Assembly: GCF_009914755.1 (NCBI RefSeq)
Contig: NC_060933.1
Strand: one strand, 5' to 3'
Source: the human T2T-CHM13v2.0 reference genome, Homo sapiens
Length of the DNA stretch: 64,000 nt
This document shows, piece by piece, positions 3,001-28,934 of the stretch. Position 1 is the first letter of the stretch; each line of letters opens with the position of its first letter. A program made the translations under genes and the position numbers. The notes beneath the pieces were generated by a model, which saw only the letters and a list, made by a program, of their open reading frames with translations, had not been told where the DNA came from and did no database searches.

Positions 3001-6000
3001 TTCCCCTGCACTCGGGTTGATTCCATTCCATTCCATTCCATTCCATTCCATTCCATTCCATTCCATTCCATTCAACTGCACTAGGTTTGATTCCATTCCA
3101 CTGCATTCCATTCCATTCCATTCCATTCCACTCCATTCCATTCCATTCCCCCGCACTCGGGTTCATTCCATTCCATTGCATTTACTTCCATTCCATTCCA
3201 TTCCATTCCATTCCATTCCATTCCATTAGACTCCATTCCATGCCATTCCACTCGGTTTTATTCCATTCGTTTCCATTCCATTCGGGATGAATCCATTACA
3301 TTCCATTACATTCGATTCCATTACATTGCACTCGTGTTGATTCCATTCCATTCCATTCCATTCCATTCCATTCCATGCCATTCCACTCGGGTTGATTTCA
3401 TTCCATTCCGTTCCATTCGAGTCGAACCCATTCCATTCCATTCCATTCCATTCCATTCCATTCCAATCCATTGCACACGGGTTCATTCCATTCCATTCCA
3501 TTCCATTCCATTCCATTCCATTTCGTTCCATTCCATTCTATTCGGTACCATTCCATTCCATTCCATTCGGTACCATTCCATTCCATTCCATTCCAATCCA
3601 TTCCATTCCATGCCATTCCACTTGGGTTGATTCCCTTCCTTTCCATTCCATTCGGGTTGAATCCATTCCATTCCATTCCATTCCATTCCATTCCATTCCA
3701 TTCCATTCCATTCCTTTCAATTCCATTGCACACGGGTTGGTTCCATTCCATTCCTTTCCGTTCCATTCCGGATGACTCCATTCCATTGCATTCCATTCCA
3801 TTCCATTCCCCTGCACTCGGGTTCATTACCTTCCATTCCATTTACTTCCATTCCATTCCATTCCATTCTATTCGGGTTAATTCCATTCCATTCCATTCCA
3901 TTCTATTCGGGTTAATTCCATTCCATTCCATTCCATTCCATTCCATTCCATTCCATTCCATTCCATTCCATTGCAATCGAGTTGATTCCATTCCATTCCA
4001 TTCAATTCCGGATGATTCCATTCCATTGCCTTCAATTCCATTCCATTCCCCTGCACTCGGGTTGATTCCATTCCATTCCATTCCATTCCATTCCATTCCA
4101 TTCCATTCCATTTCATTCCATTCCATTTCGTTCCTTTCCATTCTATTCCGTACCATTCCATTCCATTCCATTCCATTCCATTCCATTCCATTCCATGCCA
4201 TTCCACTCGGGTTGATTCCATTCCTTTCCATTCCATTCGAGTTGAATCCATTCCAATCCATTCCATTCCATTCGATTCCATTCCATTGCACACGGGTTCA
4301 TTCTATTCCATTCCATTCCATTCCATTCCATTCCATTCCATTCCATTTCGTTCCATTCCATTATATTCCGTACCATTCCATTCCATTCCATTCCATTCCA
4401 TTCCACTCCACTCCATGCCATTCCACTCGGGTTTATTCCATTCCTTTCCATTCCATTCGGGTTGAATCCATTCCATTCCATTCCATTCCATTCGATTCCA
4501 TTACATTGCACTCGGGTTGATTCCATTCCTTTCCATTCCATTCCATTCCACTCCATTCCATGCCATTCCACGCGGGTTTATTCCATTCCTTTCCATTCCA
4601 TTCGTGTTGAATCCATTCCATTCCATTCCATTCCATTCGATTCCATTACACTGCACTCGGGTTGATTCCATTCCATTCCATTACATTCCATTTCATTCCA
4701 TTCCATTCCATTCCATTCCATTCCATTCCATTCCATTCCATGCCATTCCACTCGTGTTGATTCCATTCCTTTGCATTCCATTCGTGTTGAACCCATTCCA
4801 TTCCATTCCATTCCATTGCACACAGGTTCATTCCATTCCATTCCATTCCATTCCATTCCATTCCATTCCGTTCCATTCCATTCCATTCCATTCCATTCCA
4901 TTCCATTCCATTTCGTTCCATTCCATTCTATTCTGTACCATTCCATTCCATTCCATTCCACTCCATTCCATGCCATTCCACTCGGGTTTATTCCATTCCT
5001 TTTCATTCCATTTGGGTTGAATCCATTCCATTCCATTCCATTCCTTTCGATTCCATTATATTGCACACGGGTTGATTCCATTCCATTCCATTCCGTTCCA
5101 TTCAGGATGACTCCATTCCATTGCATTCCATTCCATTCCATTCCCCTGCACTCGGGTTCATTACATTCCATTCCATTCCCATCCACTCCATTCCATTCCA
5201 TTCCATTCCATTCCATTTCAATCGAGTTGATTCCATTCCATTCCATTACATTCCATTCAATTCCGGATGATTCCATTCCATTGCCTTCCATTCCACTCCA
5301 TTCCCCTGCACTCGGGTTGATTCCATTCCATTCCATTCCATTCCATTCCATTCCATTCCATTTCTTTCCATTCCACTCTATTCCGTACCATTCCATTCCA
5401 TTCCTTTCCATTCCAATCCATGCTATTCCACTCGGGTCGATTCCATTCCTTTCCATTCCATTCGAGTTGAATGCATTCCATTCCATTCCATTCCATTCGA
5501 TTCCATTCCATTGCACACGGGTTCATTTCATTCCATTCCATTCCATTCCATTCCATTCCAATCCATTCCATTTCGTTCCATTCCATTCTATTCCGTACCA
5601 TTCCATTCCATTCCATTCCATTCCATTCCACTGCATTCTATTGCACTCGGGTTGATTGACTCCATTCCATTGCATTCCATTCCATTCCATTCCATTCCAT
5701 TCCATTCCATTCTGTTCAGGTTAATTCCATTCCATTCCATTCCCTTCCATTCCATTCCATTCCATTCCATCCCATTGCAATCGAGGTGATTCCATTGCAT
5801 TCCATTCCATTCCATTCCATTCCATTGCATTCCCCTGCACTCAGATTGATTCCATTGCATTCCTTTCCATTCCATTCCGTTCCATTCCTTTCCATTCCAT
5901 TCTATTTGCGTTAATTCCGTTCCATTCCATTCCATTACATTCCTTTGCAATCGAGTTGATTCCATTCCATTCCATTCCATTCCATTCCATTCCATTCCAT

Positions 6001-6509
6001 TCCATGCCATTCCACTCGGGTTGATTCCATTCCTTTCCATTCCATTCGAGTTGAATCCATTCCATTCCATTCTATTCCATTCGATTCCATTCCATTGCTC
6101 ACGTGTTCATTCCATTCCATTCCATTCCATTCCATTCCATTCCATTCCATTTCTTTCCATTCCATTCTCTTCCGTAGTATTCCATTCCATTCCATTCCAC
6201 TCCATTCCATGCCATTCCACTCGGGTTTATTCCATTCCTTTCCATTCCATTCGGGTTGAATTCATTCCATTCCATTCCACTCCATTCCATTCAATTCCAT
6301 TACATTGCACTCGGGTTGATTCCATTGCATTCCATTCCATTTCAATCCATTCCCTTCCATTCCATTTCATTCCATTCCATTCCATTCCATTCCATTCCAT
6401 TCCATTCCATTCCATGCCATTCCACTCGAGTTGATTCCATTACTTTCCATTCCATTCTAGTTGAACCCATTCCATTCCATTCCATTCCATTCCATTCCAT
6501 TGCACACGG
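1..6509 (-). repeat. HSat3 orientation block 1 (CATTC on +, G-rich strand on -)
   Basis: (CATTC)n reads on + up to ...ccattgcacacgg (6509). Confidence 0.97.
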
Positions 6510-7484
6510 AATGGAATGGAATGGAAACAACCCGAATGGAATGGAATGTAATGGAGTGTAAGGGAATTGAATACAATCAATCCGAATGTAATGGAATGGA
6601 ATGGAACGGAATGGAATGGAATGGAATGCAGTGGAATGGAATCAAACCTAGTGCAATGGAATGGAATGCAATGGAATGGAATGGAATGGAATGGAAGGGA
6701 TTGGATTCAACCCAAATGGAATGGAAAGCAATGGAATCAAACCGAGTGGAATGGCATGGAATGGAATGGAATGGTACAGAATAGAATGGAATGGAACGAA
6801 ATGGAATGGAATGGAATGGAATGGAACGGAATGGAATTAACGCGAGTAGAATGGAATGGAATGTAATGGAACGGAATGGAATGGAATGGGATGGAATGGA
6901 ATCAATCTGAGTGCAGGGGAATGGAATGGAATGGAATGCAATGGAATGGAATGGAATGGAATGGAATGCAATGGAATCAACTAGATTGCAATGGGATGGA
7001 ATGGAATGGAATGGAATGGAAGGGAATGGAATGGAATGAAATTAACCTGAACAGAATGGAATGGAATGGAATGGAACGGAATGGAAGGGAATGGAATGGA
7101 ATGGAATTAACCTGAACAGAATGGAATAGAATGGAATGGAACGGAATGGAATGGAATGGAATGGAATGGAATGCAATGGAATGGGATCAACCCAAGTGCA
7201 GGGGAATGGAATGGAATGGAATGCAATGGAATGGAATCAATCAACCCGAGTGCAATAGAATGCAGTGGAATGGAATGGAATGGAATGGAAAGTACCCGAA
7301 TGGAATGGAATGTAATGGAGTGTAAGGGAATTAAAAAGAATCAATCCGAATGTAATGGAATGGAATTGAAAGGAAAGGAATGGAAAGGAATGGAACGGAA
7401 TGGAACGGGATGAAATGGAATGGCATAGAACGGAATGGAATCAACCCGAGCGCAATGGAATGGAATGGAATGGAATGGAATGGA
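1..7484 (+). repeat. Direct duplication D1, copy 1 (partner 21200-28683; offset 21,199)
   Basis: Position 1 cgagttgattccattgctttgcattcta recurs at 21200. ORF pairs with identical translations: 19/21218 and 665/21864 (21,199), 3226/24430 (21,204), 6227/27426 and 7131/28330 (21,199). The copies diverge after caacccgagcgcaat(ggaat)n. Copy 1 probably extends upstream of the window. Confidence 0.95.
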
Positions 7485-9882
7485 ATGGAATGGAGTCAAT
7501 CAACCCGAGTGCAATAGAATGCAGTGGAATGGAATGGAATGGAATGGAATGGAATGGTACGGAATAGAATGGAATGGAACGAAATGGAATGGATTGGAAT
7601 GGAATGGAATGGAATGGAATGGAATGAAATGAACCCGTGTGCAATGGAATGGAATCGAATGGAATGGAATGGAATGGAATGCATTCAACTCGAATGGAAT
7701 GGAAAGGAATGGAATCGACCCGAGTGGAATAGCATGGATTGGAATGGAAAGGAATGGAATGGAATGGTACGGAATAGAGTGGAATGGAAAGAAATGGAAT
7801 GGAATGGAATGGAATGGAATGGAATGGAATGGAATCAACCCGAGTGCAGGGGAATGGAGTGGAATGGAAGGCAATGGAATGGAATCATCCGGAATGGAAT
7901 GGAATGGAATGGAATGGAATGGAATGGAATGGAATGGAATGATACGGAATAGAATGGAATGGAACGAAATGGAATGGAATGGAATGGAATGGAATGGAAT
8001 GGAATGGAATGGAATGGTTCCGAGTGGAATAGGAGGGAATGTATTCGAGTGGAATGGAAAGGAATGGAATCAACCAGAGTGGAATGGAAGGGAATGGAAT
8101 GCAATGGAAACTAATAGAATGGAATCAACCCGAGTGGAATGGAATGGAAAGGACTGGAATGGAATGGAATGGAATGGAATCAACTCGATTGTAATGGAAT
8201 GGAATGGAATGGAATGGAATGGAATGGAATTAACCCGAATACAATGGAATGGAATGGAATGGAACGGAATGGAGTGGAATGGAATGGAATCAACCCGAGT
8301 GCAGGGGAATGGAATGGAATGGAATGCAATGGAATGCAATCATCCGGAATGGAATGGAATGGAGTGGAATGCAAAGCAATGGAATCAACTCGATTGCAAT
8401 GGAATGGAATGGAATGGAAAGGAATACATTGGAATCAACCCGAGTGGAATGGAATGGAAAGGACTGGAATGGAGTGGAATGGAATAGAATGGACTGGAAT
8501 GGAATGGAATGGAATCAACTCGATTGGAATGGAATGGAATGGAATGGAATGGAATGGAATTAACCCGAATAGAATGGAATGGAATGGAATGGAACGGAAC
8601 GGAACGGAACGGAACGGAACGGAATGGAATGGAATGGAATGGAATGGAACGGAACGGAACGGAATGGAATGGAAAGGAATGGAATGGAAAGGAATCAACG
8701 TGAGTGCAGGGGAATGGAATGGAATGGAATGAAATGGAATGGAATCTTACGGAATGGAATGGAATGGAATGGATTAGAATGGAATGGAATGGAATGGAAT
8801 GGAATCAACCCGAGTACAGGGGAATGGAATGGAATGTAATGCAATGGAATGGAATCATCCGTAATGGAATGTAAAGGAATGGAATGGAATGGAATGGAAT
8901 GGAATGGAATGGAATGCAATGGATTCAACTCGATTGCAATGAAATGGAATAGAATGGAATGGAATGGAATGGAATGGAATGGAATGGAATTAACCCGAAT
9001 AGAATGGAATGGAATGGTATGGAACGGAACGGAACGGAAAGTAACCGAATGGAATGGAATGGAATGGAATGGAATGGAATGGAATGGAATGGAATGGTAC
9101 AGAATAGAATGGAATGGAAAGAATTGGAATGGAATGGAATCGAATGGAATGGAATCGAATGGAATGGAATGGAATGGAATGCAATGGAATGGAATGGAAC
9201 CAACCCGAGTGCCATGGAATGGATTGGAATGGAATGGAATGGAATGGAACAACCCGAATGGAATGGAATGTAATGGAGAGTAAGGGAGTTGAATAGAATC
9301 AATCCGAATGTAATGGAATGGAATGGAACGGAATGGAATGGAATGTAATGGAATGGAATGCAATGGAATGGAATCAACCCGAGTACAATGGAATGGAATG
9401 GAATGGAATGGAATGGAATGGAATGGAATGGAATGGAATCAACCCGAGTGCAATGGAATAGAGAGGAAAGGAATGGAATGGAATGGAAACTACCCGAATG
9501 GAATGGAATGTAATGAAGTGTAAGGGAATTGAATAGAATCAATCCGAATGGAATGGAATGTAATGGAACGGAATGTAATGTAATGGACTGCAATGGAATC
9601 AACCCGAGTGCAGGGGAATGGAATGGAATGGAATGCAATGGAATGGAATCATCCGGAATGGAATGGAATGGAATGGAATAGAATCAACCCGAGTGCAAAG
9701 GAATGGAGTGAAATGGAATGGAATGGAATGGAAACAACCAGAATGGATTGGAATATAATGGAGTGTAAGGGAATTGAATAGAATCAATCTGAATGTAATG
9801 AAATGGAATGGAACGGAAAGGAATGGAATGGAATGGAATGGAATGGAATGGAATGCAATGGAATGGAATCAACCCGAGTGCA
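6508..9882 (+). repeat. HSat3 orientation block 2, about 3.37-kb inverted island (GGAAT on +)
   Basis: (GGAAT)n runs from ggaatggaat at 6508 to ...aacccgagtgca at 9882, flanked on both sides by CATTC-oriented sequence. Confidence 0.97.
7484..7895 (+). repeat. Inverted copy (about 412 bp) of 5260-5671
   Basis: Position x pairs with 13155-x. ORF 5257..5631(-) is identical to the first 124 aa of ORF 7524..7952(+). Rare words are shared in reverse complement (ggagtcaatcaacc, atcgacccgagtggaatagcatgg, atagagtggaatggaaagaaatgg). Confidence 0.93.
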
Positions 9883-10920
9883 TTCCATTGCATTCTGGTT
9901 GTTTCCATTCCATTCCATTCCATTTCAGTCCATTCCATTGCACTCAGGTTGATTCCATTCCATTCCATTCCATTGCATTCCATTCCATTCCATTCCGGAT
10001 GATTCCATTCCATTGCATTCCATTCCATTCCATTCCCCTGCACTCGGGTTGATTCCATTCCATTCCATTACATTACATTCCGTTCCATACCATTCCATTC
10101 CTTTCGGATTGATTCTATTCAATTCCCTTACACTCCATTACATTCCATTCCATTCGGGTAGTTTCCATTCCATTCCATTCCATTCCTCTCCATTCCATTG
10201 CACTCGGGTTGATTCCATTCCATTCCATTCCATTCCATTCCATTCCATTCCATTCCATTCCATTCCATTCCATTACATTACATTATATTCCGTTCCATTG
10301 TACTCGGGTTGATTCCATTCCATTGCATTCCATTCCATTCCATTCCATTCCATTCCGTTCCATTCCATTACATTCGGATTGATTCTATTGAACTCCCTTA
10401 CTCTCCATTACATTCCATTCCATTCGGGTTGTTCTATTCCATTCCATTCCGTTCCACTCCATTCCATTGCACACGGGTTGATTCCATTCCATTCCATTCC
10501 ATTCCATTCCATTCCAGTCCATTCCATTCCGGATGATTCCATTCCATTGCATTCCTTTCCATTACATTCCCCTGCACTCGGGTTGATTCCATTCCATTCC
10601 ATTCCATTCCATTCGATTCCATTCCATTCCAATTCTTTCCATTCCATTCTATTCCGTACCATGCCATTCCATTCCATACAATTCAATTCCATTCCATTCT
10701 ATTCCGTACCATGCCATTCCATTCCATACAATTCCATTCCATTCCATTCCACTCCGTTCCGTTCCGTTCCGTTCCGTTCGGTTCCATTCCATTCCATTCC
10801 ATTCTATTCGGTTTAATTCCATTCCATTCCATTCCATTCTATTCTATTCCATTGCAATCGAGTTGAATCCATTGCATTCCATTCAATTCCATTCCATTCC
10901 ATTCCATTCCGTAAGATTCC
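8741..10920. repeat. Diverged fold-back inverted repeat (arms about 8741-9745 and 9891-10920; spacer about 145 bp)
   Basis: Cassettes appear in mirror order across the 9880 switch: gaaacaaccagaatg/cattctggttgtttc, gtaagggaattg/caattcccttac, aaactacccg/cgggtagttt, gagagtaagggagtt/aactcccttactctc, ggaaagaattgg/ccaattctttcc, ggaatcttacgg(8741)/ccgtaagattcc(10909-10920). Confidence 0.85.
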
Positions 10921-11974
10921 ATTCCATTGCATTCCATTCCATTCCATTCCATTCCATTCCATTCCATTCCATTCCATTCCATTGTACTCGGGTTGATTCC
11001 ATTCCATTGCATTCCATTCAATTCCATTCCATTCCATTCCGTTCCATTCCATTCCATTACATTCGGATTGATTCTTTTCAACTCCCTTACTCTCCATTGC
11101 ATTCCATTCCATTCGGGTTGTTCCATTCCATTCCATTCCATTCCACTCCATTCCATTGCACTCGGGTTGATTCCATTCCATTCCATTCCATTCCATTCCG
11201 GATGATTCCATTCCATTGCATTCCGTTCCATTACATTCCCCTGCACTCGGGTTGATTCCATTCCATTCCATTCCATTCCATTCCATTCCATTCCCCTGCA
11301 CTCGCGTTGATTCCATTCCATTCCATTCCATTCCATTCCATTCCTTTCCATTCCAGTCCTTTCCATTCCATTCCATTCGGGTTGATTCCATTCTATTAGT
11401 TTCCATTCCATTCCATTCCCTTCCATTCTACTCTGGTTGATTCCATTCCTTTCAATTCCACTCGAATACATTCCCTCCTATTCCACTCGGAACGATTCCA
11501 TTCCATTCCATTCCATTCCATTCCATTCCATTCCATTCCATTCCATTCCATTTCGTTCCATTCCATTCTATTCCGTATCATTCCATTCCATTCCATTCCA
11601 TTCCATTCCATTCCATTCCATTCGTGTTGATTCCATTCCTTTCCATTCCATTCGGTTTGAAGGCATTCCAATCCATTCCATTCCCTTCCATTCCATTCCA
11701 TTCCATTCCATTCCATTCCATTCCATTGTACTCGGGTTGATTCCATTCCATTGCATTCCATTCCATTCCATTCCATTCCATTCCATTCCATTCCATTCCG
11801 TTGCATTCTGTTCCATTACATTCAGATTGATTCTATTCAACTCCCTTACTCTCCATTACATTCCATTCCATTCGGGTTGTTCCATTCCATTCCATTCCAT
11901 TCCACTCCATTCCATTGCACTCGGGTTGATTCCATTCCATTCCATTCCATTCCATTCCATTCCATTCCATTCCA

Positions 11975-14900
11975 TTCCGGATGATTCCATTCCATTGCAT
12001 TCCATTCCATTACATTCCCCTGCACTCGGGTTGATTCCATTCCATTCCACTCCATTCCGTTCCATTCCATTCCATTCCATTGTATTCGGGTTAATTCCAT
12101 TCCATTCCATTCCATTCCATTCCATTCCATTCCATTCCATTACTATCGAGTTGATTCCATTCCATTCCATTCCATTCCAGTCCTTTCCATTCCATTCCAC
12201 TCGGGTTGATTCTATTCTATTAGATTCCATTCCATTCCATTCCCTTCCATTCCACTCTGGTTGATACCATTCCTTTCCATTCCACTCGAATACATTCCCT
12301 CCTATTCCACTCGGAACGATTCCATTCCATTCCATTCCATTCCATTCCATTCCATTCCATTCCATTCCATTCCATTTCGTTCCATTCCATTCTATTCCCT
12401 ATCATTCCATTCCATTCCATTCCATTCCATTCCATTCCATTCCATTCCATTCCATTACATTGTACTCAGGTTGATTCAATTCCATTGCATTCCATTCCAT
12501 TCCATTCCATTCCATTCCATTCCATTCCATTCCGTTCTATTCCATTCCATTACATTCGGATTGATTCTATTCAACTCCCTTACTCTCCATTACATTCCAT
12601 TCCATTCGGGTTGTTCCATTCCATTCCATTCCATTCCACTCCATTCCATTGCACTCGGGTTGATTCCATTCCATTCCATTCCATTCCATTCCATTCCATT
12701 CCATTCCATTCCATTCCGAATGATTCCATTCCATTGCATTCCGTTCCATTACATTCCCCTGTACTCGCGTTGATTCCATTCCATTCCATTCAATTCCGTT
12801 CCATTACAATTCGTTCCATTCCATTCTATTCCGTACAATTCCATTCCTTTCCATACCATTCCATTCCATTCCATTCCATTCCATTCCATTCCGTTGCATT
12901 CCGTTCCATTCCATTCCATTCCATTCTACTCGGATTAATTCCATTCCATTCCATTCCATTCCATTCCATTCCATTCTATTCCATTCCATTGCAATCGAGT
13001 TGAATCCATTGCATTCCATTCCATTCCATTCCATTCCATTCCATTCCATTCCATTCCGGAAGATTCCATTCCATTGCATTCCATTCCATTCCATTCCCCT
13101 GCACTCGCGTTGATTCCATTCCATTCCATTCCATTCCATTCCATTCCGTTCCGTACCATTCCATTCCATTCCATTCCATTCCATTCCGTTCCATTCCATT
13201 CCATTCCATTCTATTCGGGTTAATTCCATTCCATTCCATTCGATTGCAATCGAGTTGATTCCATTCCATTCTATTCCATTCCATTCCATTCCATTCCATT
13301 CCTTTCCATTCCATTACGGATGATTCCATTCCATTGCATTCCATTCCATTCCATTCCCCTGTACTCGGGTTGATTCCATTGCATTCCATTCCAATCCATG
13401 CCATTCCACTCGTGTTGATTCCATTCTTTCCATTCCATTCAAGTTGAATCCATTCCATTGCATTCCATTCCATTCCATTCCCCTGCAGTCGGGTTGATTC
13501 CATTCCCTTCCATTCGATTCCATTCCATTCCATTCCGTTCCGTTCCGTTCCATTCCATTCCATTCCATTCTATTCGGGTTAATTCCATTCCATTCCATTG
13601 CATTCCATTCCAATCGAGTTGATTCCATTCCATTCCATTCCATTCCATTCCACTCCATTCCAGTCCTTTCCATTCCATTCCACTCGGGTTGATTCCAATG
13701 TATTCCTTTCCATTCCATTCCATTCCATTGCATTCCGTTCCATTACATTCCCCTGCACTCGCGTTGATTCCATTCCATTCCATTCCATTCCATTCAATTC
13801 CATTCCATTACAATTCGTTCCATTCCATTCTATTCCGTACCATTCCAATCCATTCCATTCCAATCGAGTTGATTCCTTTCCATTCCATTCCATTCCATTC
13901 CACTCCATTCCAGTCCTTTCCATTCCATTCCACTCGGGGTGATTCCAATGTATTCCTTTCCATTCCATTCCATTCCATTGCAATCGAGTTGATTCCATTG
14001 CTTTGCATTCCATTCCATTCCATTCCATTCCGGATGATTCCATTCCATTGCATTCCATTCCATTCCATTCCCCTGCACTCGGGTTGATTCCATTCCATTC
14101 CACTCCATTCCGTACCATTCCATTCCATTCCATTCCATTGTATTCGGGTTAATTCCATTCCATTCCATTCCATTCCATTCCATTCCATTCCATTGCAATC
14201 GAGTTGATTCCATTCCATTTCATTCCATTCCATTCCATTACATTCCATTCCAATCGAGTTGATTCCATTCCATTTCATTCCATTCCATTCCATTCCATTC
14301 CATTCCATTCCATTCCAGTCCTTTCCATTCCATTCCACTCGGGTTGATTCCATTCTATTAGTTTCCATTCCATTCCATTCTCTTCCATTCCACTCTGGGT
14401 GATTCCATTCCTTTCCATTCCACTCGAATACATTCCCTCCTATTCTACTCGGAACGATTCCATTCCATTCCATTCCATTCCATTCCATTCCATTCCATTC
14501 CATTCCATTTCGTTCCATTCCATTCTGTTCCGTATCATTCCATTCCATTCCATTCCATTCCCTTTCATTCCATTCCATTACATTCCACTCGTGTTGATTC
14601 CATTCCTTTCCATTCCATTCGGTTTGAAGGCATTCCATTCCATTCCATTCCATTCCATTCCATTCCATTGTACTCGGGTTGATTCCATTCCATTGCATTC
14701 CATTCCATTCCAATCCGTTGCATTCCATTCCATTACATTCGGATTGATTCTATTCAACTCCCTTACTCTCCATTACATTCCATTCCATTCGGGTTGTTCC
14801 ATTCCATTCCATTCCGTTCCACTCCATTCCATTGCACTCGGGTTGATTCCATTCCATTCCATTCCATTCCATTCCATTCCGGATGATTCCGTTCCATTGC

Positions 14901-17900
14901 ATTCCGTTCCATTACATTCCCCTGCACTCGCGTTGATTCCATTCCATTCCATTCCATTCCATTCCATTCAATTCCATTCTATTACAATTCGTTCCATTCC
15001 ATTCTATTCCGTAGCATTCCATTCCATTCCATACCATTCCATTCCATTCCATTCCATTCCATTCCATTCCGTTCCGTTCCATTCCGTTCCATTCCATTCC
15101 ATTCCATTCTATTCGGGTTAATTCCATTCCATTCCATTCCAATCTATTCCATTCCATTGCAATCGAGTTGAATCCATTGCATTTCAATCCATTCCATTCC
15201 ATTCCATTCCATTCCATTCCATTGCAATCGAGTTGAATCCATTGCATTTCATTCCATTCCATTCCATTCCATTCCATTCCGGAAGATTCCATTCCATTGC
15301 ATTCCATTCCATTCCATTCCCCTGCACTCGCGTTGATTCCATTCCATTCCATTCCATTCCATTCCGTTCCGTTCCGTTCCATTTCATTCCATTCCATTCC
15401 ATTCCATTCAGTTCCGTTCCATTCCATTCCATTCCATTCTATTCGCGTTAATTCCATTCCATTCCATTCGATTGCAATCGAGTTGATTCCATTCCATTCC
15501 ATTCCATTCCGTTCCGGATGATTCCATTCTATTGCATTCCATTCCATTCCATTCCCCTGCAGTCGGGTTGATTCCATTCCATTCCATTCCATTCCATTCC
15601 ATTCCATTCCATTCCGGATGATTCCATTCCATTGCATTCCGTTCCATTACATTCCCCTGCACTCGCGTTGATTCCATTCCATTCCATTCCATTCAATTCC
15701 ATTCCATTACAATTCGTTCCATTCCATTCTATTCCGTTCCGTTCCATTCCATTCCATTCCATTCCATTCCGTTCCGTTCCATTCCATTGCATTCCATTCT
15801 ATTCGGGTTAATTCCATTCCATTCCATTCGATTGCAATCGAGTTGATTCCATTCCATTCCATTCCATTCCATTCCATTCCATTCCATTCCTTTCCATTCC
15901 GTTACGGATGATTCCATTCCATTGCATTCCATTCCAATCCATTCCCCTGTACTCGGGTTGATTCCATTCCATTCCATTCCAATCCATGCCATTCCACTCG
16001 TGTTGATTCCATTCTTTCCATTCCATTCAAGTTGAATCCATTCCATTGCATTCCATTCCATTCCATTCCCCTGCAGTCGGGTTGATTCCATTCCATTCCA
16101 TTCCATTCCAATCCATTCCATTCCACTCCGTTCCGTTCCATTCCATTCTATTCCATTCCATTATATTCGGGTTAATTCCATTCCATTCCATTCCATTCCA
16201 ATCGAGTTGATTCCATTCCATTCCATTCCATTCCATTCCACTCCATTCTAGTCCTTTCCATTCCATTCCACTCGGGTTGATTCCAATGTATTCCTTTCCA
16301 TTCCATTCCATTCCATTGCAATCGAGTTGATTCCATTGCTTTGCATTCCACTCCATTCCATTCCATTCCGGATGATTCCATTCCATTGCATTCCATTCCA
16401 TTCCATTCCCCTGCACTCGGGTTGATTCCATTCCATTCCACTCCATTCCGTTCCATTCCATTCCATGGCATTGTATTCGGGTTAATTCCATTCCATTCCA
16501 TTCCATTCCATTCCATTCCATCACAATCGGGTTGGTTCCATTCCATTCCATTCCATTCCATTCCATTCCATTCCATTCCGGATGATTCCATTCCATTACA
16601 TTCCGTTCCATTACATTCCCCTGCACTCGGGTTGATTCCATTCCATTCCATTCCATTCCATTCCATTCCATTCGATTCCATTCCATTCCAATTCTTTCCA
16701 TTCCATTCTCTTCCGTACCATTCCATTCCATTCCATACCATTCCATTCCATTCCATTCCATTCCGTTCCTTTCCGTTCCATTCCATTCCATTGCATTGTA
16801 TTCGGGTTAATTCCATTCCATTCCATTCCATTCTATTCCATTCCATTGCAATCGAGTTGAATCCATTGCATTCCATTCCATTCCATTCCATTCCATTCTG
16901 GAAGATTCCATTCCATTGCATTCCATTCCATTCCATTCCCCTGCACTCGCGTTGATTCCATTCCATTCCATTCCATTCCATTCCGTTCCGTTCCGTTCCG
17001 TTCCATTCCATTCCATTCCTTTCTATTCGGTTTAATTCCATTCCTTTCCATTCCATTCCATTCCATTCCATTCCAATCAAGTTGATTCCATTCCATTCCA
17101 TTCCATTCCATTCCATTCCGTTCCGTTCCATTCCATTCCATTCCATTCCATTCCATTCCGGATGATTCCATTCCATTGCATTCCGTTCCATTACATTCCC
17201 CTGCACTCGCGTTGATTCCATTCCATTCCATTCCATTCCATTCAATTCCATTCCATTACAATTCGTTCCATTCCATTCTATTCCGTACCATTCCATTCCA
17301 TTCAATTCCAATCGAGTTGATTCCTTTCCATTCCATTCCATTCCATTCCACTCCATTCCAGTCCTTTCCATTCCATTCCACTCGGGGTGATTCCAATGTA
17401 TTCCTTTCCATTCCATTCCATTCCATTGCAATCGAGTTGATTCCATTGCTTTGCATTCCATTCCATTCCATTCCATTCCGGATGATTCCATTCCATTGCA
17501 TTCCATTCCATTACATTCCCCTGCACTCGGGTTGATTCCATTCCATTCCACTCCATTCCGTTCCATTCCATTCCATTCCATTGTATTCGGGTTAATTCCA
17601 TTCCATTCCATTCCATTCCATTCCATTACAATCGAGTTGATTCCATTCCATTCCATTCCATTCCAGTCCTTTCCATTCCATTCCACTCGGGTTGATTCCA
17701 TTCTATTAGATTCCATTCCATTCCATTCCCTTCCATTCCACTCTGGTTGATACCATTCCTTTCCATTCCACTCGAATACATTCCCTCCTATTCCACTCGG
17801 AACGATTCCATTCCATTCCATTCCATTCCATTCCATTCCATTCCATTCCATTCCATTTCGTTCCATTCCATTCTATTCCGTATCATTCCATTCCATTCCA

Positions 17901-20900
17901 TTCCATTCCATTCCATTCCATTCCATTCCATTCCATTCCATTGTACTCAGGTTGATTCAATTCCATTGCATTCCATTCCATTCCATTCCATTCCATTCCA
18001 TTCCATTCCGTTCTATTCCATTCCATTACATTCGGATTGATTCTATTCAACTCCCTTACTCTCCATTACATTCCATTCCATTCGGGTTGTTCCATTCCAT
18101 TCCATTCCATTCCACTCCATTCCATTGCACTCGGGTTGATTCCATTCCATTCCATTCCATTCCATTCCATTCCATTCCATTCCGAATGATTCCATTCCAT
18201 TGCATTCCGTTCCATTACATTCCCCTGTACTCGCGTTGATTCCATTCCATTCCATTCAATTCCGTTCCATTACAATTCGTTCCATTCCATTCTATTCCGT
18301 ACAATTCCATTCCTTTCCATACCATTCCATTCCATTCCATTCCATTCCATTCCGTTGCATTCCGTTCCATTCCATTCCATTCCATTCTACTCGGATTAAT
18401 TCCATTCCATTCCATTCCATTCCATTCCATTCCATTCAATTCCATTCCATTGCAATCGAGTTGAATCCATTGCATTCCATTCCATTCCATTCCATTCCAT
18501 TCCATTCCGGAAGATTCCATTCCATTGCATTCCATTCCATTCCATTCCCCTGCACTCGCGTTGATTCCATTCCATTCCATTCCATTCCATTCCATTCCAT
18601 TCCATTCCGTTCCGTTCCATTCCATTCCATTCCATTCCATTCCATTCCGTTCCATTCCATTCCATTCCATTCTATTCGGGTTAATTCCATTCCATTCCAT
18701 TCGATTGCAATCGTGTTGATTCCATTCCATTCTATTCCATTCCATTCCATTCCATTCCATTCCTTTCCATTCCATTACGGATGATTCCATTCCATTGCAT
18801 TCCATTCCATTCCATTCCCCTGTACTCGGGTTGATTCCATTGCATTCCATTCCAATCCATGCCATTCCACTCGTGTTGATTCCATTCTTTCCATTCCATT
18901 CAAGTTGAATCCATTCCATTGCATTCCATTCCATTCCATTCCCCTGCAGTCGGGTTGATTCCATTCCCTTCCATTCGATTCCATTCCATTCCATTCCGTT
19001 CCGTTCCGTTCCATTCCATTCCATTCCATTCTATTCGGGTTAATTCCATTCCATTCCATTGCATTCCATTCCAATCGAGTTGATTCCATTCCATTCCATT
19101 CCATTCCATTCCACTCCATTCCAGTCCTTTCCATTCCATTCCACTCGGGTTGATTCCAATGTATTCCTTTCCATTCCATTCCATTCCATTGCATTCCGTT
19201 CCATTACATTCCCCTGCACTCGCGTTGATTCCATTCCATTCCATTCCATTCCATTCAATTCCATTCCATTACAATTCGTTCCATTCCATTCTATTCCGTA
19301 CCATTCCATTCCATTCCATTCCAATCGAGTTGATTCCTTTCCATTCCATTCCATTCCATTCCACTCCATTCCAGTCCTTTCCATTCCATTCCACTCGGGG
19401 TGATTCCAATGTATTCCTTTCCATTCCATTCCATTCCATTGCAATCGAGTTGATTCCATTGCTTTGCATTCCATTCCATTCCATTCCATTCCGGATGATT
19501 CCATTCCATTGCATTCCATTCCATTCCATTCCCCTGCACTCGGGTTGATTCCATTCCATTCCACTCCATTCCGTACCATTCCATTCCATTCCATTCCATT
19601 GTATTCGGGTTAATTCCATTCCATTCCATTCCATTCCATTCCATTCCATTCCATTGCAATCGAGTTGATTACATTCCATTTCATTCCATTCCATTCCATT
19701 ACATTCCATTCCAATCGAGTTGATTCCATTCCATTTCATTCCATTCCATTCCATTCCATTCCATTCCATTCCATTCCATTCCATTCCTTTCCATTCCATT
19801 CCACTCGGGTTGATTCCATTCTATTAGTTTCCATTCCATTCCATTCTCTTCCATTCCACTCTGGGTGATTCCATTCCTTTCCATTCCACTCGAATACATT
19901 CCCTCCTATTCTACTCGGAACGATTCCATTCCATTCCATTCCATTCCATTCCATTCCATTCCATTACATTCCACTCGTGTTGATTCCATTCCTTTCCATT
20001 CCATTCGGTTTGAAGGCATTCCATTCCATTCCATTCCATTCCATTCCATTCCATTGTACTCGGGTTGATTCCATTCCATTGCATTCCATTCCATTCCAAT
20101 CCGTTGCATTCCATTCCATTACATTCGGATTGATTCTATTCAACTCCCTTACTCTCCATTACATTCCATTCCATTCGGGTTGTTCCATTCCATTCCATTC
20201 CGTTCCACTCCATTCCATTGCACTCGGGTTGATTCCATTCCATTCCATTCCATTCCATTCCATTCCGGATGATTCCGTTCCATTGCATTCCGTTCCATTA
20301 CATTCCCCTGCACTCGCGTTGATTCCATTCCATTCCATTCCATTCCATTCCATTCAATTCCATTCTATTACAATTCGTTCCATTCCATTCTATTCCGTAG
20401 CATTCCATTCCATTCCATACCATTCCATTCCATTCCATTCCATTCCATTCCATTCCGTTCCGTTCCATTCCGTTCCATTCCATTCCATTCCATTCTATTC
20501 GGGTTACTTCCATTCCATTCCATTCCAATCTATTCCATTCCATTGCAATCGAGTTGAATCCATTGCATTTCAATCCATTCCATTCCATTCCATTCCATTC
20601 CATTGCAATCGAGTTGAATCCATTGCATTTCATTCCATTCCATTCCATTCCATTCCATTCCGGAAGATTCCATTCCATTGCATTCCATTCCATTCCATTC
20701 CCCTGCACTCGCGTTGATTCCATTCCATTCCATTCCATTCCATTCCATTCCGTTCCGTTCCGTTCCATTTCATTCCATTCCATTCCATTCCATTCAGTTC
20801 CGTTCCATTCCATTCCATTCCATTCTATTCGGGTTAATTCCATTCCATTCCATTCGATTGCAATCGAGTTGATTCCATTCCATTCCATTCCATTCCGTTC

Positions 20901-20985
20901 CGGATGATTCCATTCTATTGCATTCCATTCCATTCCATTCCCCTGCAGTCGGGTTGATTCCATTCCATTCCATTCCATTCCATTC
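11975..20985 (+). repeat. Direct duplication D2: about 11975-15600 repeated at about 17475-20985 (offset about 5.39-5.50 kb)
   Basis: Identical ORF pairs 13314/18775 and 13439/18900 (offset 5461) and 14763/20149 (5386). Shared starts at 12261/17747 (5486) and 14399/19865 (5466). Confidence 0.9.
13053..20671 (-). promoter_or_regulatory. Five perfect three-unit heat shock element motifs (nGAAnnTTCnnGAAn on the - strand)
   Basis: attccggaagattcc at 13053, 15276, 18504 and 20657, and attctggaagattcc at 16895. The motif match is direct; function is inferred. Confidence 0.6.
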
Positions 20986-21199
20986 CATTCCATTCCATTC
21001 CGTTCCATTCCATTCCATTCCATTCTATTCAGGTTAATTCCATTCCATTCCTTTCCATTCCATTCCATTCCATTCCAATCGAGTTGATTCCATTCCATTC
21101 CATTCCATTCCATTCCACTCCATTCCAGTCCTTTCCATTCCATTACACTCGGGTTGATTCCGTTCTATTCCTTTCCATTCCATTCCATTCCATTGCAAT

Positions 21200-24100
21200 C
21201 GAGTTGATTCCATTGCTTTGCATTCTATTCCATTCCATTCCATTCCGGATGATTCCATTCCATTGCATTCCATTCCATTCCATTCCCCTGCACTCGGGTT
21301 GATTCCATTCCATTCCACTCCATTCCGTTCCATTCTAGTCCATTCCATTGTATTCGGGTTAATTCCATTCCATTCCATTCCATTCCATTCCATTACAATG
21401 TAGTTGATTCCATTCCATTCCATTCCATTCCATTCCATTCCAGTCCTTTCCATTCCATTCCACTCGGGTTGATTCCATTCTATTAGTTTCGATTCCATTC
21501 CATTCCCTTCCATTCCAATCTGGTTGATTCCATTCCTTTCCATTCCACTCGAATACATTCCCTCGTATTCCACTCAGAACGATTCCATTCCATTCCATTC
21601 CATTCCATTCCATTCCATTCCATTCCATTCCAGTTCGTTCCATTCCATTCTATTCCGTACCATTCTATTCCATTCCATTCCTTTCCATCCCATTCCATTC
21701 CACTCGTGGTGATTCCATTCCTTTCCATTCCATTCGGTTTGAAGGCATTCCATTCCATTCAATTCCATTCCATTCCATTCCATTCCATTCCATTCCATTG
21801 TACTCGAGTTGATTCCATTCCATTGCATTCAATTCCATTCCATTCCATTCCATTGTACTCGAGTTGATTCCATTCCATTGCATTCCATTCCATTCCATTC
21901 CATTCCATTCTGTAGCATTCCATTCCATTACATTCGGATTGATTCTATTCAACTCCCTTACTCTCCATTACATTCCATTCCATTCGGGTTGTTCCATTCC
22001 ATTCCATTCCATTCCACTCCATTCCATTGCACTCGGGTTGATTCCATTCCATTCCATTCCATTCCATTCCATTCCGGATGATTCCATTCCATTGCATTCC
22101 GTTCCATTACATTCCCCTGCACTCGCGTTGATTCCATTCCATTCCATTCCATTCCATTCAATTCCATTCCATTGCAATTCGTTCCATTCCATTCTATTCC
22201 GTACCATTCCATTCCATTCCGTTCCATTCTGTTCCTTTCCATTCCATTCCATTCTATTCGGATTAATTCCATTCCATTCCATTCCGTTCCATTCCATTCC
22301 ATTCCATTCCTTTCCATTCCATTACATTCCATTTCGTTCCATTCCATTCTATTCCGTACGATTCCATTGCATTCCATTCCATTCCATTCCTTTGCATTCC
22401 ATTGAAATCGAGTTGATTCCATTCCATTCCGTTCCATTCCATTCCATTCCATTCCATTCCGGATGATTCCATTCCACTGCATTCCATTCCATTAAATTCC
22501 CCTGCACTTGGGGTGATTCCTTTCCATTCTATTCTATTCCATTCCATTCCATTCCATTTCATTGCAATCGAGTTGATTCCATTGCATTCCATTCCATTCC
22601 ATTCCAGTCCTTTCCATTCCATTCCACTCGGGTTGATTCCATTCTATTCCTTTCCATTCCATTCGATTCCATTCCATTCCACTCTGGTTGATACCATTCC
22701 TTTTCATTCCACTCGAAAACATTCCCTTCTATTCCACTCGGAATGATTCCATTCCATTCCATTCCATTCCATTCCATTCCGTTTCGTTCCATTACATTCT
22801 ATTCCGTACCATTCCACTCCATTCCATTCCATTCCATTCCATGCCATTCCTCTCGGGTTGATTCCATTCCTTTCCATTCCATTAGGGTTGAATCCATTCC
22901 ATTCCATTCCATTCCATTCCATTCCATTCCATTCCATGCCATTCCACTCGGGTTGATTCCATTCCTTTCCATTCCATTCGAGTTGAATCCATTCCATTCC
23001 ATTCCATTCCATTCGATTCCATTCCATTGCACACGGGTTCATTTCATTCCATTCCATTCCATTCCATTTAGTTCCATTCCATTCTATTCCATACCATTCC
23101 ATTCCATTGCATTCCATTCCACTCCATTCCATGCTATTCCTCTCGGGTTTATTCCATTCCTTTCCATTCCATTCGGATTGAATCCATTCCTTTCCATTCA
23201 ATTCCATTCCACTCGATTCCATTACATTGCAGTCGTGTTGTTTCCATTCCATTCCATTCCATTCCATTTCATTCTATTCCATTCCATTCCATTCCATTCC
23301 ATTCCATTCCATTCCATGCCATTCCACTCGGGTTGATTCCATTCCTTTCCATTCCATTCGAGTTGAAACCATTCCATTCCATTCCATTCCATTCTATTCC
23401 ATTCCATTCCAATCCATTGCACACGGGTTCATTCCATTCCATTCCATTCCATTCCATTCCATTCCATTCCATTCCATTCCATTTCGTTCCATTCCATTCT
23501 ATTCCGTACCATTCCATTCCATTCCATTCCATTCCATTCCATGCCATTCCACTCGGTTTTTTCCATTCCTTTCCATTCCATTCGGGTTGAATCCATTCCT
23601 TTCCATTCCATTCCGTTCAATTCCATTCCATTGCACTCGGGTTGATTCCATTCCATTCCATGCCATTCCATTTCATTCCGTTCCATTCCATTCCATTACT
23701 TTCGGATTGATTCTTTTCAATTCCCTTACACTCCATTTCATTCCATTCCATTCGGGTAGTTTCCTTTCCATTCCATTCCATTCCACTCCATTGCATTGCA
23801 CTCGGGTTGATAGATTCCATTCCATTCCATTCCATTCCATTCCATTCCATTCCATTCCATTCCGGATGAATCCATTCCATTGCATTCCATTCCATTCCAT
23901 TCCCCTGCACACGGGTTGATTCCATTCCATTCCATTCCATTCCATTCCGTTCCATTCCATTCCATTCCATTCCATTCTGTTCAGGTTAATTCCATTCCAT
24001 TCCATTCCATTCCATTCCATTCCATTCCATTCCATTCCATTCCATTGCAATCGAGTTGTTTCCATTGCATTCCTTTCCATTCCATTCCATTGCATTCCAT

Positions 24101-27100
24101 TGCATTCCATTCCCATGCACTCAGGTTGATTCCATTCCATTCCATTCCATTCCATTCCATTCCATTCCGGATGATTCCATTCCATTGCCTTCCATTCCAC
24201 TCCATTCCCCTGCACTCGGGTTGATTCCATTCCATTCCATTCCATTCCATTCCATTCCATTCCATTCCATTCCATTCAACTGCACTAGGTTTGATTCCAT
24301 TCCACTGCATTCCATTCCATTCCATTCCATTCCACTCCATTCCATTCCATTCCCCCGCACTCGGGTTCATTCCATTCCATTGCATTTACTTCCATTCCAT
24401 TCCATTCCATTCCATTCCATTCCATTCCATTAGACTCCATTCCATGCCATTCCACTCGGTTTTATTCCATTCGTTTCCATTCCATTCGGGATGAATCCAT
24501 TACATTCCATTACATTCGATTCCATTACATTGCACTCGTGTTGATTCCATTCCATTCCATTCCATTCCATTCCATTCCATGCCATTCCACTCGGGTTGAT
24601 TTCATTCCATTCCGTTCCATTCGAGTCGAACCCATTCCATTCCATTCCATTCCATTCCATTCCATTCCAATCCATTGCACACGGGTTCATTCCATTCCAT
24701 TCCATTCCATTCCATTCCATTCCATTTCGTTCCATTCCATTCTATTCGGTACCATTCCATTCCATTCCATTCGGTACCATTCCATTCCATTCCATTCCAA
24801 TCCATTCCATTCCATGCCATTCCACTTGGGTTGATTCCCTTCCTTTCCATTCCATTCGGGTTGAATCCATTCCATTCCATTCCATTCCATTCCATTCCAT
24901 TCCATTCCATTCCATTCCTTTCAATTCCATTGCACACGGGTTGGTTCCATTCCATTCCTTTCCGTTCCATTCCGGATGACTCCATTCCATTGCATTCCAT
25001 TCCATTCCATTCCCCTGCACTCGGGTTCATTACCTTCCATTCCATTTACTTCCATTCCATTCCATTCCATTCTATTCGGGTTAATTCCATTCCATTCCAT
25101 TCCATTCTATTCGGGTTAATTCCATTCCATTCCATTCCATTCCATTCCATTCCATTCCATTCCATTCCATTCCATTGCAATCGAGTTGATTCCATTCCAT
25201 TCCATTCAATTCCGGATGATTCCATTCCATTGCCTTCAATTCCATTCCATTCCCCTGCACTCGGGTTGATTCCATTCCATTCCATTCCATTCCATTCCAT
25301 TCCATTCCATTCCATTTCATTCCATTCCATTTCGTTCCTTTCCATTCTATTCCGTACCATTCCATTCCATTCCATTCCATTCCATTCCATTCCATTCCAT
25401 GCCATTCCACTCGGGTTGATTCCATTCCTTTCCATTCCATTCGAGTTGAATCCATTCCAATCCATTCCATTCCATTCGATTCCATTCCATTGCACACGGG
25501 TTCATTCTATTCCATTCCATTCCATTCCATTCCATTCCATTCCATTCCATTTCGTTCCATTCCATTATATTCCGTACCATTCCATTCCATTCCATTCCAT
25601 TCCATTCCACTCCACTCCATGCCATTCCACTCGGGTTTATTCCATTCCTTTCCATTCCATTCGGGTTGAATCCATTCCATTCCATTCCATTCCATTCGAT
25701 TCCATTACATTGCACTCGGGTTGATTCCATTCCTTTCCATTCCATTCCATTCCACTCCATTCCATGCCATTCCACGCGGGTTTATTCCATTCCTTTCCAT
25801 TCCATTCGTGTTGAATCCATTCCATTCCATTCCATTCCATTCGATTCCATTACACTGCACTCGGGTTGATTCCATTCCATTCCATTACATTCCATTTCAT
25901 TCCATTCCATTCCATTCCATTCCATTCCATTCCATTCCATTCCATGCCATTCCACTCGTGTTGATTCCATTCCTTTGCATTCCATTCGTGTTGAACCCAT
26001 TCCATTCCATTCCATTCCATTGCACACAGGTTCATTCCATTCCATTCCATTCCATTCCATTCCATTCCATTCCGTTCCATTCCATTCCATTCCATTCCAT
26101 TCCATTCCATTCCATTTCGTTCCATTCCATTCTATTCTGTACCATTCCATTCCATTCCATTCCACTCCATTCCATGCCATTCCACTCGGGTTTATTCCAT
26201 TCCTTTTCATTCCATTTGGGTTGAATCCATTCCATTCCATTCCATTCCTTTCGATTCCATTATATTGCACACGGGTTGATTCCATTCCATTCCATTCCGT
26301 TCCATTCAGGATGACTCCATTCCATTGCATTCCATTCCATTCCATTCCCCTGCACTCGGGTTCATTACATTCCATTCCATTCCCATCCACTCCATTCCAT
26401 TCCATTCCATTCCATTCCATTTCAATCGAGTTGATTCCATTCCATTCCATTCCATTCCATTCCATTCCGGATGATTCCATTCCATTGCCTTCCATTCCAC
26501 TCCATTCCCCTGCACTCGGGTTGATTCCATTCCATTCCATTCCATTCCATTCCATTCCATTCCATTTCTTTCCATTCCACTCTATTCCGTACCATTCCAT
26601 TCCATTCCTTTCCATTCCAATCCATGCTATTCCACTCGGGTCGATTCCATTCCTTTCCATTCCATTCGAGTTGAATGCATTCCATTCCATTCCATTCCAT
26701 TCGATTCCATTCCATTGCACACGGGTTCATTTCATTCCATTCCATTCCATTCCATTCCATTCCAATCCATTCCATTTCGTTCCATTCCATTCTATTCCGT
26801 ACCATTCCATTCCATTCCATTCCATTCCATTCCACTGCATTCTATTGCACTCGGGTTGATTGACTCCATTCCATTGCATTCCATTCCATTCCATTCCATT
26901 CCATTCCATTCCATTCTGTTCAGGTTAATTCCATTCCATTCCATTCCCTTCCATTCCATTCCATTCCATTCCATCCCATTGCAATCGAGGTGATTCCATT
27001 GCATTCCATTCCATTCCATTCCATTCCATTGCATTCCCCTGCACTCAGATTGATTCCATTGCATTCCTTTCCATTCCATTCCGTTCCATTCCTTTCCATT

Positions 27101-28683
27101 CCATTCTATTTGCGTTAATTCCGTTCCATTCCATTCCATTACATTCCTTTGCAATCGAGTTGATTCCATTCCATTCCATTCCATTCCATTCCATTCCATT
27201 CCATTCCATGCCATTCCACTCGGGTTGATTCCATTCCTTTCCATTCCATTCGAGTTGAATCCATTCCATTCCATTCTATTCCATTCGATTCCATTCCATT
27301 GCTCACGTGTTCATTCCATTCCATTCCATTCCATTCCATTCCATTCCATTTCTTTCCATTCCATTCTCTTCCGTAGTATTCCATTCCATTCCATTCCACT
27401 CCATTCCATGCCATTCCACTCGGGTTTATTCCATTCCTTTCCATTCCATTCGGGTTGAATTCATTCCATTCCATTCCACTCCATTCCATTCAATTCCATT
27501 ACATTGCACTCGGGTTGATTCCATTGCATTCCATTCCATTTCAATCCATTCCCTTCCATTCCATTTCATTCCATTCCATTCCATTCCATTCCATTCCATT
27601 CCATTCCATTCCATGCCATTCCACTCGAGTTGATTCCATTACTTTCCATTCCATTCTAGTTGAACCCATTCCATTCCATTCCATTCCATTCCATTCCATT
27701 GCACACGGAATGGAATGGAATGGAAACAACCCGAATGGAATGGAATGTAATGGAGTGTAAGGGAATTGAATACAATCAATCCGAATGTAATGGAATGGAA
27801 TGGAACGGAATGGAATGGAATGGAATGCAGTGGAATGGAATCAAACCTAGTGCAATGGAATGGAATGCAATGGAATGGAATGGAATGGAATGGAAGGGAT
27901 TGGATTCAACCCAAATGGAATGGAAAGCAATGGAATCAAACCGAGTGGAATGGCATGGAATGGAATGGAATGGTACAGAATAGAATGGAATGGAACGAAA
28001 TGGAATGGAATGGAATGGAATGGAACGGAATGGAATTAACGCGAGTAGAATGGAATGGAATGTAATGGAACGGAATGGAATGGAATGGGATGGAATGGAA
28101 TCAATCTGAGTGCAGGGGAATGGAATGGAATGGAATGCAATGGAATGGAATGGAATGGAATGGAATGCAATGGAATCAACTAGATTGCAATGGGATGGAA
28201 TGGAATGGAATGGAATGGAAGGGAATGGAATGGAATGAAATTAACCTGAACAGAATGGAATGGAATGGAATGGAACGGAATGGAAGGGAATGGAATGGAA
28301 TGGAATTAACCTGAACAGAATGGAATAGAATGGAATGGAACGGAATGGAATGGAATGGAATGGAATGGAATGCAATGGAATGGGATCAACCCAAGTGCAG
28401 GGGAATGGAATGGAATGGAATGCAATGGAATGGAATCAATCAACCCGAGTGCAATAGAATGCAGTGGAATGGAATGGAATGGAATGGAAAGTACCCGAAT
28501 GGAATGGAATGTAATGGAGTGTAAGGGAATTAAAAAGAATCAATCCGAATGTAATGGAATGGAATTGAAAGGAAAGGAATGGAAAGGAATGGAACGGAAT
28601 GGAACGGGATGAAATGGAATGGCATAGAACGGAATGGAATCAACCCGAGCGCAATGGAATGGAATGGAATGGAATGGAATGGA
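21200..28683 (+). repeat. Direct duplication D1, copy 2
   Basis: Near-identical to 1-7484, including the strand-switch junction. Differences seen are two whole-pentamer indels and two substitutions corresponding to 5248 and 5259. Confidence 0.95.
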
Positions 28684-28934
28684 TTCAACCCGAATGGAAT
28701 GGAAAGGAATGGAATAAACCCGAGTGAAATGGCATGGAAGGGAATGGAATGGAATGGAATGGTACGGAGTAGAATGGAATGGAACGAAATGGAATGGAAT
28801 GGAATGGAATGGAATGGAATGAACCCGTGAGCAATGGAATGGAATGGAATGGAATGGAATGGAATGGAAGGGAATGGAATGGGTTCAATTCGAATGGAAT
28901 GGAAAGGAATGGAATCAACCCGAGTGCAATGGCA

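What the first reader, a model, noticed from the sequence alone, without database searches (positions are those of the whole stretch)
6501..27720. The same inversion junction occurs twice, 21,199 bp apart: inversions propagate by duplication
Seen: both CATTC-to-GGAAT switches (6508-6509 and 27707-27708) read ccattgcacac-GG-aatggaatggaatggaaacaacccg, with a 2-bp GG overlap and no inserted sequence, inside at least 7.5 kb of near-identical flanks. Inference: one ancestral inversion event was copied as part of a higher-order unit of about 21.2 kb (1-21199) that contains an internal inverted segment. Breakpoint counts in such arrays would therefore overstate the number of independent events.
Basis: partly seen in the sequence, partly recalled or inferred. 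Interest (0 to 1): 0.7.

Follow-up and report, generated by a model that had tools for sequence, protein, structure and literature searches.

The report
One satellite junction copied 85 times
In the giant repeat block on human chromosome 9, the point where the repeat flips direction has the same sequence at 85 places, and eight such junction sequences cover 203 of at least 217 flips, so the block's 200-plus 'inversion breakpoints' are likely a few old junctions copied as the block grew.

Summary
Both CATTC-to-GGAAT switches (GG at 6508-6509 and 27707-27708) are the same junction, J, with a true 2-bp overlap. J occurs 85 times along chr9 52.3-76.4 Mb, in both orientations. Eight junction families give 203 switches that alternate head-head/tail-tail in 188 of 202 neighbour pairs; 14 gaps put the total at 217 or more. 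Five families hold 198. J remains 56 of 131 after the known 9qh+ megabase duplication is removed. Locally the pair comes from one recent 21.2-kb tandem duplication (copy 1 -13288..7484, copy 2 7891..28683; 4 substitutions, six 5-bp indels). It is not a higher-order unit 1-21199. Its breakpoint holds a 442-bp exact inverted copy of J's own left arm, a template-switch signature. The whole structure recurs 8.74 Mb away, which argues against a false assembly duplication. No reciprocal partner of J was found, so J is one ancestral junction, not shown to be one inversion. Shared flanks fade within about 1 kb and the arms are unlinked. The switch counts are published; I did not find the collapse into families in the papers I could read.

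The parts
6497..6534 (+). Junction J, copy 1 (head-to-head CATTC-to-GGAAT switch; GG overlap 6508-6509)
27696..27733 (+). Junction J, copy 2 (GG overlap 27707-27708)
9867..9898 (+). Junction K (tail-to-tail GGAAT-to-CATTC switch), one of 30 copies; its sister copy lies 21,184 bp upstream, before the window
1..7484 (.). In-window part of copy 1 of the tandem duplication (copy 1 begins at window coordinate -13288, chr9:52,934,712)
7484..7925 (.). 442-bp insert at the duplication breakpoint: exact reverse complement of 26434-26875; 440 of 442 identical to the reverse complement of 5230-5671; overlaps the start of copy 2 by 35 bp of (GGAAT)n
7891..28683 (.). Copy 2 of the tandem duplication (20.8 kb: K left arm, K, 17.8-kb plus block, J, 977 bp of J right arm)
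26434..26875 (-). Stretch of J's left arm (copy 2) identical to the insert in inverted orientation
5230..5671 (-). Same stretch in copy 1, the likely template; carries two later private substitutions at 5248 and 5259

Best explanation
The two switches are copies of one junction sequence that occurs 85 times in the chr9 HSat3 array, and it most likely formed once and was multiplied passively by the duplications that grew the array. Shown: the junction is the same to the base; its arms are far closer among copies than random array sequence; copying is visible at 9-60 kb scale (tandem pairs) and at 8.7 and 10.6 Mb; the local pair sits in a 21.2-kb tandem duplication with a 442-bp inverted copy of J's left arm at the breakpoint. 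Inferred: J arose by a one-time join with 2-bp microhomology (end joining or template switch). Inferred: later exchanges between opposite-strand blocks flipped J and replaced its flanks without adding switches. Inferred: the local duplication arose when a replication fork left the template 977 bp past J in an (AATGG)n run, copied 442 bp of the inverted arm across J, and re-entered 20.8 kb back in a (GGAAT)7 run.
For: 71 exact 38-mers, all chr9, control 0. 85 chr9 matches of the 21-mer core at up to 1 mismatch, plus 1 hit on chr14 that I dropped as chance. 35 of 85 copies with 400-bp arms: median divergence 2.5% left and 5.7% right, against 13.0% for 391 random in-phase pairs (1st percentile 5.2%). 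The overlap is only 2 bp, too little to direct repeated base-exact joining. 203 junctions in 8 families, 188 of 202 neighbours alternate, against 101+-7 (max 126 of 5000) in shuffles. Collinear chains of 32 and 40 junction pairs at lags of about 8.7 and 10.6 Mb; shuffled-label chains reached at most 16 in 30 trials. The insert matched only the local arm and its 61.7-Mb paralogue at 99.5% or more; the next best in 347 kb held was 88%. The first breakpoint of the duplication occurs at 2 places genome-wide.
Against: Left- and right-arm distances among J copies are uncorrelated (Mantel rho 0.05, 629 of 2000 permutations as high; -0.06 on 26 de-duplicated copies). Shared flanks fall to background by about 0.9 kb left and 0.7 kb right, so simple clonal copying of long blocks does not describe the older copies and flank exchange must be assumed. 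One uninverted paralogue lies 2.7% (left) or 3.2% (right) from J's arms over 200 bp, as close as J copies are to each other. The pattern for the second breakpoint matches 25 places, so it is not diagnostic. Flanks of 50 of 85 J copies were not examined at 400 bp. The total of 217 is a lower bound; hidden pairs of rare switches cannot be excluded outside the roughly 260 kb read contiguously. No reads were available.
Confidence: 0.85

Rival explanations
1. Recurrent formation: J arose many times independently because a specific pair of HSat3 motifs is a hotspot for inversion or fold-back.
For: Arms are unlinked and flanks fade within 1 kb. Close uninverted paralogues of both arms exist.
Against: Only 2 bp of overlap, yet 80 copies share an exact 21-mer across the joint. 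The arms are not inverted copies of each other (12.5% apart, background level; no fold-back match starting at the joint). Identical spacings between neighbouring junctions recur megabases apart.
Confidence: 0.05
2. One reading: a 21.2-kb higher-order unit with an inner inverted segment is the array's repeating unit.
For: Near-identity at lag 21,199 over 7.5 kb in the window and 20.8 kb with upstream sequence.
Against: Only two tandem copies, plus the pair at 61.68-61.72 Mb. J spacings elsewhere run from 9.5 kb to hundreds of kb. The inner minus segment is made at the breakpoint.
Confidence: 0.04
3. The local pair is a false duplication in the assembly.
For: 99.98% identity over 20.8 kb, in a region the assemblers describe as a complex graph loop. 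No reads were checked.
Against: The copies differ at 10 sites. The breakpoint has a novel inverted insert. The same two-copy structure with the same breakpoint recurs 8.74 Mb away, with its own differences (J spacing 21,189). Even if true, it would remove only a few of 85 copies.
Confidence: 0.03
4. The local duplication arose by ordinary unequal crossover, and the 442-bp insert came from a separate gene-conversion event between the inverted arms or from an unsampled identical paralogue.
For: The second breakpoint context is common (25 places). Only about 1% of the array was in hand to look for other donors.
Against: The insert begins at the very base where copy 1 ends (7484) and overlaps the start of copy 2 (7891-7925), which two independent events would rarely do.
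Confidence: 0.25

Closest known systems
Strand switches ('over 200 inversion breakpoints') of the chr9 HSat3B5 array, Altemose et al. preprint 10.1101/2021.07.12.452052 (passages seen)
   Same: Same array and same feature; my lower bound of 217 fits 'over 200'.
   Different: The passages I saw count breakpoints and do not group them by junction sequence. Here 198 of 203 fall in five families.
Strand switches scale with array length, 10.64898/2026.07.22.740206 (passages and section 6 read); about 129 switches per chr9 haplotype, 10.64898/2026.09.03.749043 (passages)
   Same: [quoted passage not shown]
   Different: They call the switches stochastic and randomly placed. Here they are shown to be repeated copies of a few sequences.
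[quoted passage not shown]
   Same: Junction order repeats at lags of about 8.7 and 10.6 Mb, which likely is this duplication.
   Different: It accounts for 72 of 203 junctions. 56 J copies remain without it, so most copying is older.
FoSTeS/MMBIR tandem duplications with a short templated inverted insertion (recalled knowledge; one search gave a search listing only)
   Same: Duplication with a nearby inverted template at the breakpoint and microhomology at the switches.
   Different: Here the inverted template lies across a satellite strand switch, so the inverted insert keeps GGAAT polarity and is invisible to strand annotation.

Membership tests
HSat3, subfamily B5 | CATTC/GGAAT pentamer-rich tandem sequence | tested here: met
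   Every 500-bp bin is pentamer-rich on one strand
HSat3, subfamily B5 | Subfamily 24-mer listed in PMC4022460 Table 1, and chr9 location | tested here: met
   The listed 24-mer is read at about 10132-10155; the window is C9:52.95-53.01 Mb. The full k-mer classifier was not run.
Multicopy junction family of single origin | Base-identical joint with homologous arms on both sides | tested here: met
   (35 of 85 copies at 400 bp)
Multicopy junction family of single origin | Congruent history of left and right arms | tested here: not met
   Mantel rho 0.05; needs flank exchange to explain
Simple two-ended inversion | A reciprocal tail-to-tail junction joining the natural continuations of both arms | tested here: not met
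   K, K2, K3, K4 and K5 arms are 7.9-16% from the expected continuations, with none close on both sides. Four tail-to-tail gaps were not read.
Fold-back junction | Right arm is an inverted copy of nearby left-arm sequence from the joint outward | tested here: not met
   No such match in 5 copies with long enough arms; arms 12.5% apart
Higher-order repeat of 21.2 kb | Many tandem copies at a fixed period | tested here: not met
   Two copies here and two at 61.7 Mb
FoSTeS/MMBIR-type duplication | Templated insertion from nearby sequence at the breakpoint | tested here: met
   442 bp exact, inverted, template 1.8 kb from the breakpoint
FoSTeS/MMBIR-type duplication | Microhomology at each switch | tested here: inconclusive
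   Both switches lie in pentamer runs: 35 bp at the second; 1 bp literal at the first, or 11 bp if the run later gained 10 bp. Such runs are everywhere in the array.
FoSTeS/MMBIR-type duplication | All switches made in one replication event | not testable with these tools
   Needs other haplotypes or a pedigree
False assembly duplication | Half read coverage, or no reads spanning both copies | not testable with these tools
   No reads available; indirect evidence against

The most novel reading that the evidence does not exclude
Strand-switch junctions in HSat3 are self-propagating: the inverted arms around a junction invite template switches and exchanges that duplicate and flip the junction itself, as the 442-bp insert records. 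The chr9 array's mosaic polarity, and part of its size variation, would then be driven by fewer than about 20 founding junctions, none of them a conventional two-ended inversion.
Probability: 0.2. Interest if true: 0.75.

Novelty: new variant of a known kind. Interest (0 to 1): 0.55.

Why it matters
The chr9 HSat3 block is the largest satellite array in the human genome, and its 200-plus strand switches were reported as a surprise. If they are copies of about 8-22 founding junctions, the puzzle changes from a high inversion rate to the copying and survival of a few junctions. Switch counts would then measure array expansion, not inversion events. The count also misses events: rearrangements that keep polarity, like the 442-bp insert, leave no switch. 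Five short k-mers give about 200 ordered, oriented landmarks in a region that aligners handle badly, enough to trace duplications and compare 9qh haplotypes across pangenomes and apes.

Tried and rejected
Self-BLAST of the window gave only one useful row, so I used exact-match chains. Generic switch patterns listed only the first 100 rows and served only to find families J', K2 and K3. The idea that J and K2 are the two ends of one 12.7-kb inversion (J+ then K2+ at 12,682 bp three times) was rejected: best joint identity about 85%, which is background. K4 as J's reciprocal, suggested by a similar core, was rejected (10-14% apart). J' as a deletion derivative of J was rejected: arms 12-14% apart. 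J as a fold-back was not supported. J3 and K5 as breakpoints of local tandem duplications could not be tested, as the flanks held were too short. The SNP-linkage alignment is noisy from pentamer indels and was not used for counts. The hairpin at J (-43.5 kcal/mol, z -9.7) is expected for any CATTC/GAATG switch and is not counted as evidence. The second-breakpoint pattern was not specific. The first chaining run found one chain only; one search used two lag windows that I chose. The Science version of Altemose et al. 2022 and the 2022 HSat review are not held, and bioRxiv supplements are closed; any of these may already describe shared breakpoints.
Full report
Observation. The window is HSat3 throughout, with three strand switches at about 6507 (+/-), 9881 (-/+) and 27706 (+/-). 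The two +/- switches are identical over the 480 bases read, with GG at 6508-6509 and 27707-27708. Uninverted paralogues continue the left arm as GCACACGG-GTTC and precede the right arm with a T, so the overlap is exactly two bases with no insert. I call this junction J and the -/+ switch K.

Local structure. With 40 kb of upstream sequence, exact-match chains show a tandem duplication that carries both K and J. Copy 1 runs from window coordinate -13288 (chr9:52,934,712) to 7484, and copy 2 from 7891 to 28683. The copies differ by 4 substitutions and six 5-bp indels in 20.8 kb, or 0.019% substitutions. Between them, 7484-7925 is an exact 442-bp reverse complement of 26434-26875 in J's left arm. 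It differs from the same stretch in copy 1 (5230-5671) at two bases, 5248 and 5259, which are private to that copy: the other three copies carry C. Because the template lies across J, the inverted copy still reads GGAAT and adds no strand switch. In 347 kb held, only these stretches and their paralogues matched at 99.5% or more; the next best was 88%. The first breakpoint occurs at 2 places in the genome, here and at 61.695 Mb. The pattern for the second matched 25 places and is not diagnostic. A two-switch replication event is my inference. The 3.4-kb 'inner inversion' is thus a mosaic made at the breakpoint, and the 21.2 kb is not a standing higher-order unit.

Assembly check. K-J-K-J recurs at 61.676-61.715 Mb with J spacing 21,189. 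Copy 1 there differs from the window's by 2 substitutions and 2 indels in 7.5 kb and carries the same insert. So the tandem duplication likely predates the megabase duplication. Reads were not available.

Array-wide census. The exact 38-mer has 71 matches (44 forward, 27 reverse), all on chr9, control 0. The 21-mer core at up to 1 mismatch has 86 matches: 85 on chr9 52.3-76.4 Mb and one on chr14 that I dropped. Other families: K 30, J' 11, K2 52, K3 2, K4 20, J3 2, and K5 1 (seen, not searched genome-wide). The 203 junctions alternate head-head and tail-tail in 188 of 202 neighbour pairs, against 101+-7 in 5000 shuffles (max 126). The 14 failures each hide at least one further switch (10 head-head, 4 tail-tail), so the total is at least 217. 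J is 85 of at least 108 head-head switches. In the roughly 260 kb read contiguously, no hidden pairs appeared between alternating neighbours; that is about 1% of the array. Junction order repeats in collinear chains of 32 pairs (52.1-54.6 against 60.8-63.4 Mb) and 40 pairs (54.8-60.8 against 65.4-71.4 Mb). Of consecutive spacings, 14 of 31 and 14 of 39 agree within 50 bp. Removing second copies leaves 131 junctions, 56 of them J. Same-family neighbours within 60 kb mark further candidate tandem duplications at 9.5-59 kb.

One origin or many. For 35 of 85 J copies with 400-bp arms (most from 52-57.5 Mb, some distal), median pairwise divergence is 2.5% left and 5.7% right, against 13.0% for 391 random in-phase pairs. 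Samples of J' (5), K (7), K2 (7) and K4 (3) are mostly tight within family (K4's left arm is the exception, 9.8%), and the families compared (J with J'; K, K2 and K4 with each other) are near background between them. Against a simple picture: the arm distances are uncorrelated (rho 0.05), and 20-mer sharing falls to background by about 0.9 kb left and 0.7 kb right in 25-26 copies. Single uninverted paralogues are as close as 2.7-3.2%. Repeated base-exact joining on 2 bp of overlap is implausible, so I read this as one old junction whose flanks were later exchanged. Exchange between opposite-strand blocks would also explain 49 forward and 36 reverse copies. That step is inferred. J has no reciprocal partner among five tail-to-tail families and is not a simple fold-back, so it is a one-ended junction as far as tested. 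I could not date it.

Literature. Altemose et al. preprint 10.1101/2021.07.12.452052 (passages) reports over 200 inversion breakpoints for chr9 HSat3B5 and beta satellite, as a surprise, with no grouping by sequence in the passages seen. Nurk et al. preprint 10.1101/2021.05.26.445798 (passages) describes the multi-megabase 9qh+ duplication. 10.64898/2026.07.22.740206 (passages and section 6) finds that switch number tracks array length (r = 0.90) and calls the switches stochastic byproducts of expansion. 10.64898/2026.09.03.749043 (passages) gives about 129 switches per haplotype. Passages of PMC4022460, PMC13456413, 10.1101/2024.10.22.616524 and 10.64898/2025.12.22.696095 do not address junction identity. 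Eight searches found no paper grouping the chr9 switches into families. I did not see the Science version, the 2022 review or any bioRxiv supplement; they may hold such a statement, so the novelty is provisional.

Verdict. A real feature. Copying of rearrangement junctions during satellite expansion is an expected kind of process. The extent (five sequences for 198 switches), the missing reciprocal end and the polarity-preserving templated insert are the parts a specialist would note. Interest 0.55.

Noticed in passing
window 28934-35178 and 35159-41418: Recent 6.2-kb tandem duplication in the minus block (lags 6205-6240, exact runs up to 1029 bp).
   Followed up: no
window 48590-52786 and 59694-63885: Older direct repeat at lag about 11.1 kb.
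   Followed up: no
window 12495-15616 and 17971-21002: Direct repeat at lag 5.4-5.5 kb inside the plus block, present in both copies of the 21.2-kb duplication.
   Followed up: no
window 47097-47730: Short tandem repeat of 299 bp.
   Followed up: no
window 5248 and 5259: Two C-to-A substitutions 11 bp apart, private to one of four near-identical copies; possibly a clustered mutation, a short conversion or an assembly error.
   Followed up: partly
L012, G000:C9:57614462-57614491 and C9:68236269: Junction J3 is near-palindromic and lies between two same-strand K copies 33 kb apart; it may be a new switch made by a tandem duplication across K rather than by an inversion.
   Followed up: partly
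L021, G000:C9:52351768 onward: The right arm of family K2 has no paralogue above 87% in about 260 kb, unlike most other arms; it may be a relic of an older HSat3 layer carried by 52 junction copies.
   Followed up: no
L005 and G000:C9:70845487-70871669: K4+, J, K4+, J, K4- within 26 kb: a 9.5-kb tandem duplication absent from the paralogue at 60.20-60.22 Mb, so younger than the 10.6-Mb duplication.
   Followed up: partly
G000:C7:58.7-59.2 Mb and C2:89.4-91.4 Mb: Repeated identical strand-switch strings in both orientations also appear in the chr7 and chr2 HSat arrays, so junction copying may be general.
   Followed up: no
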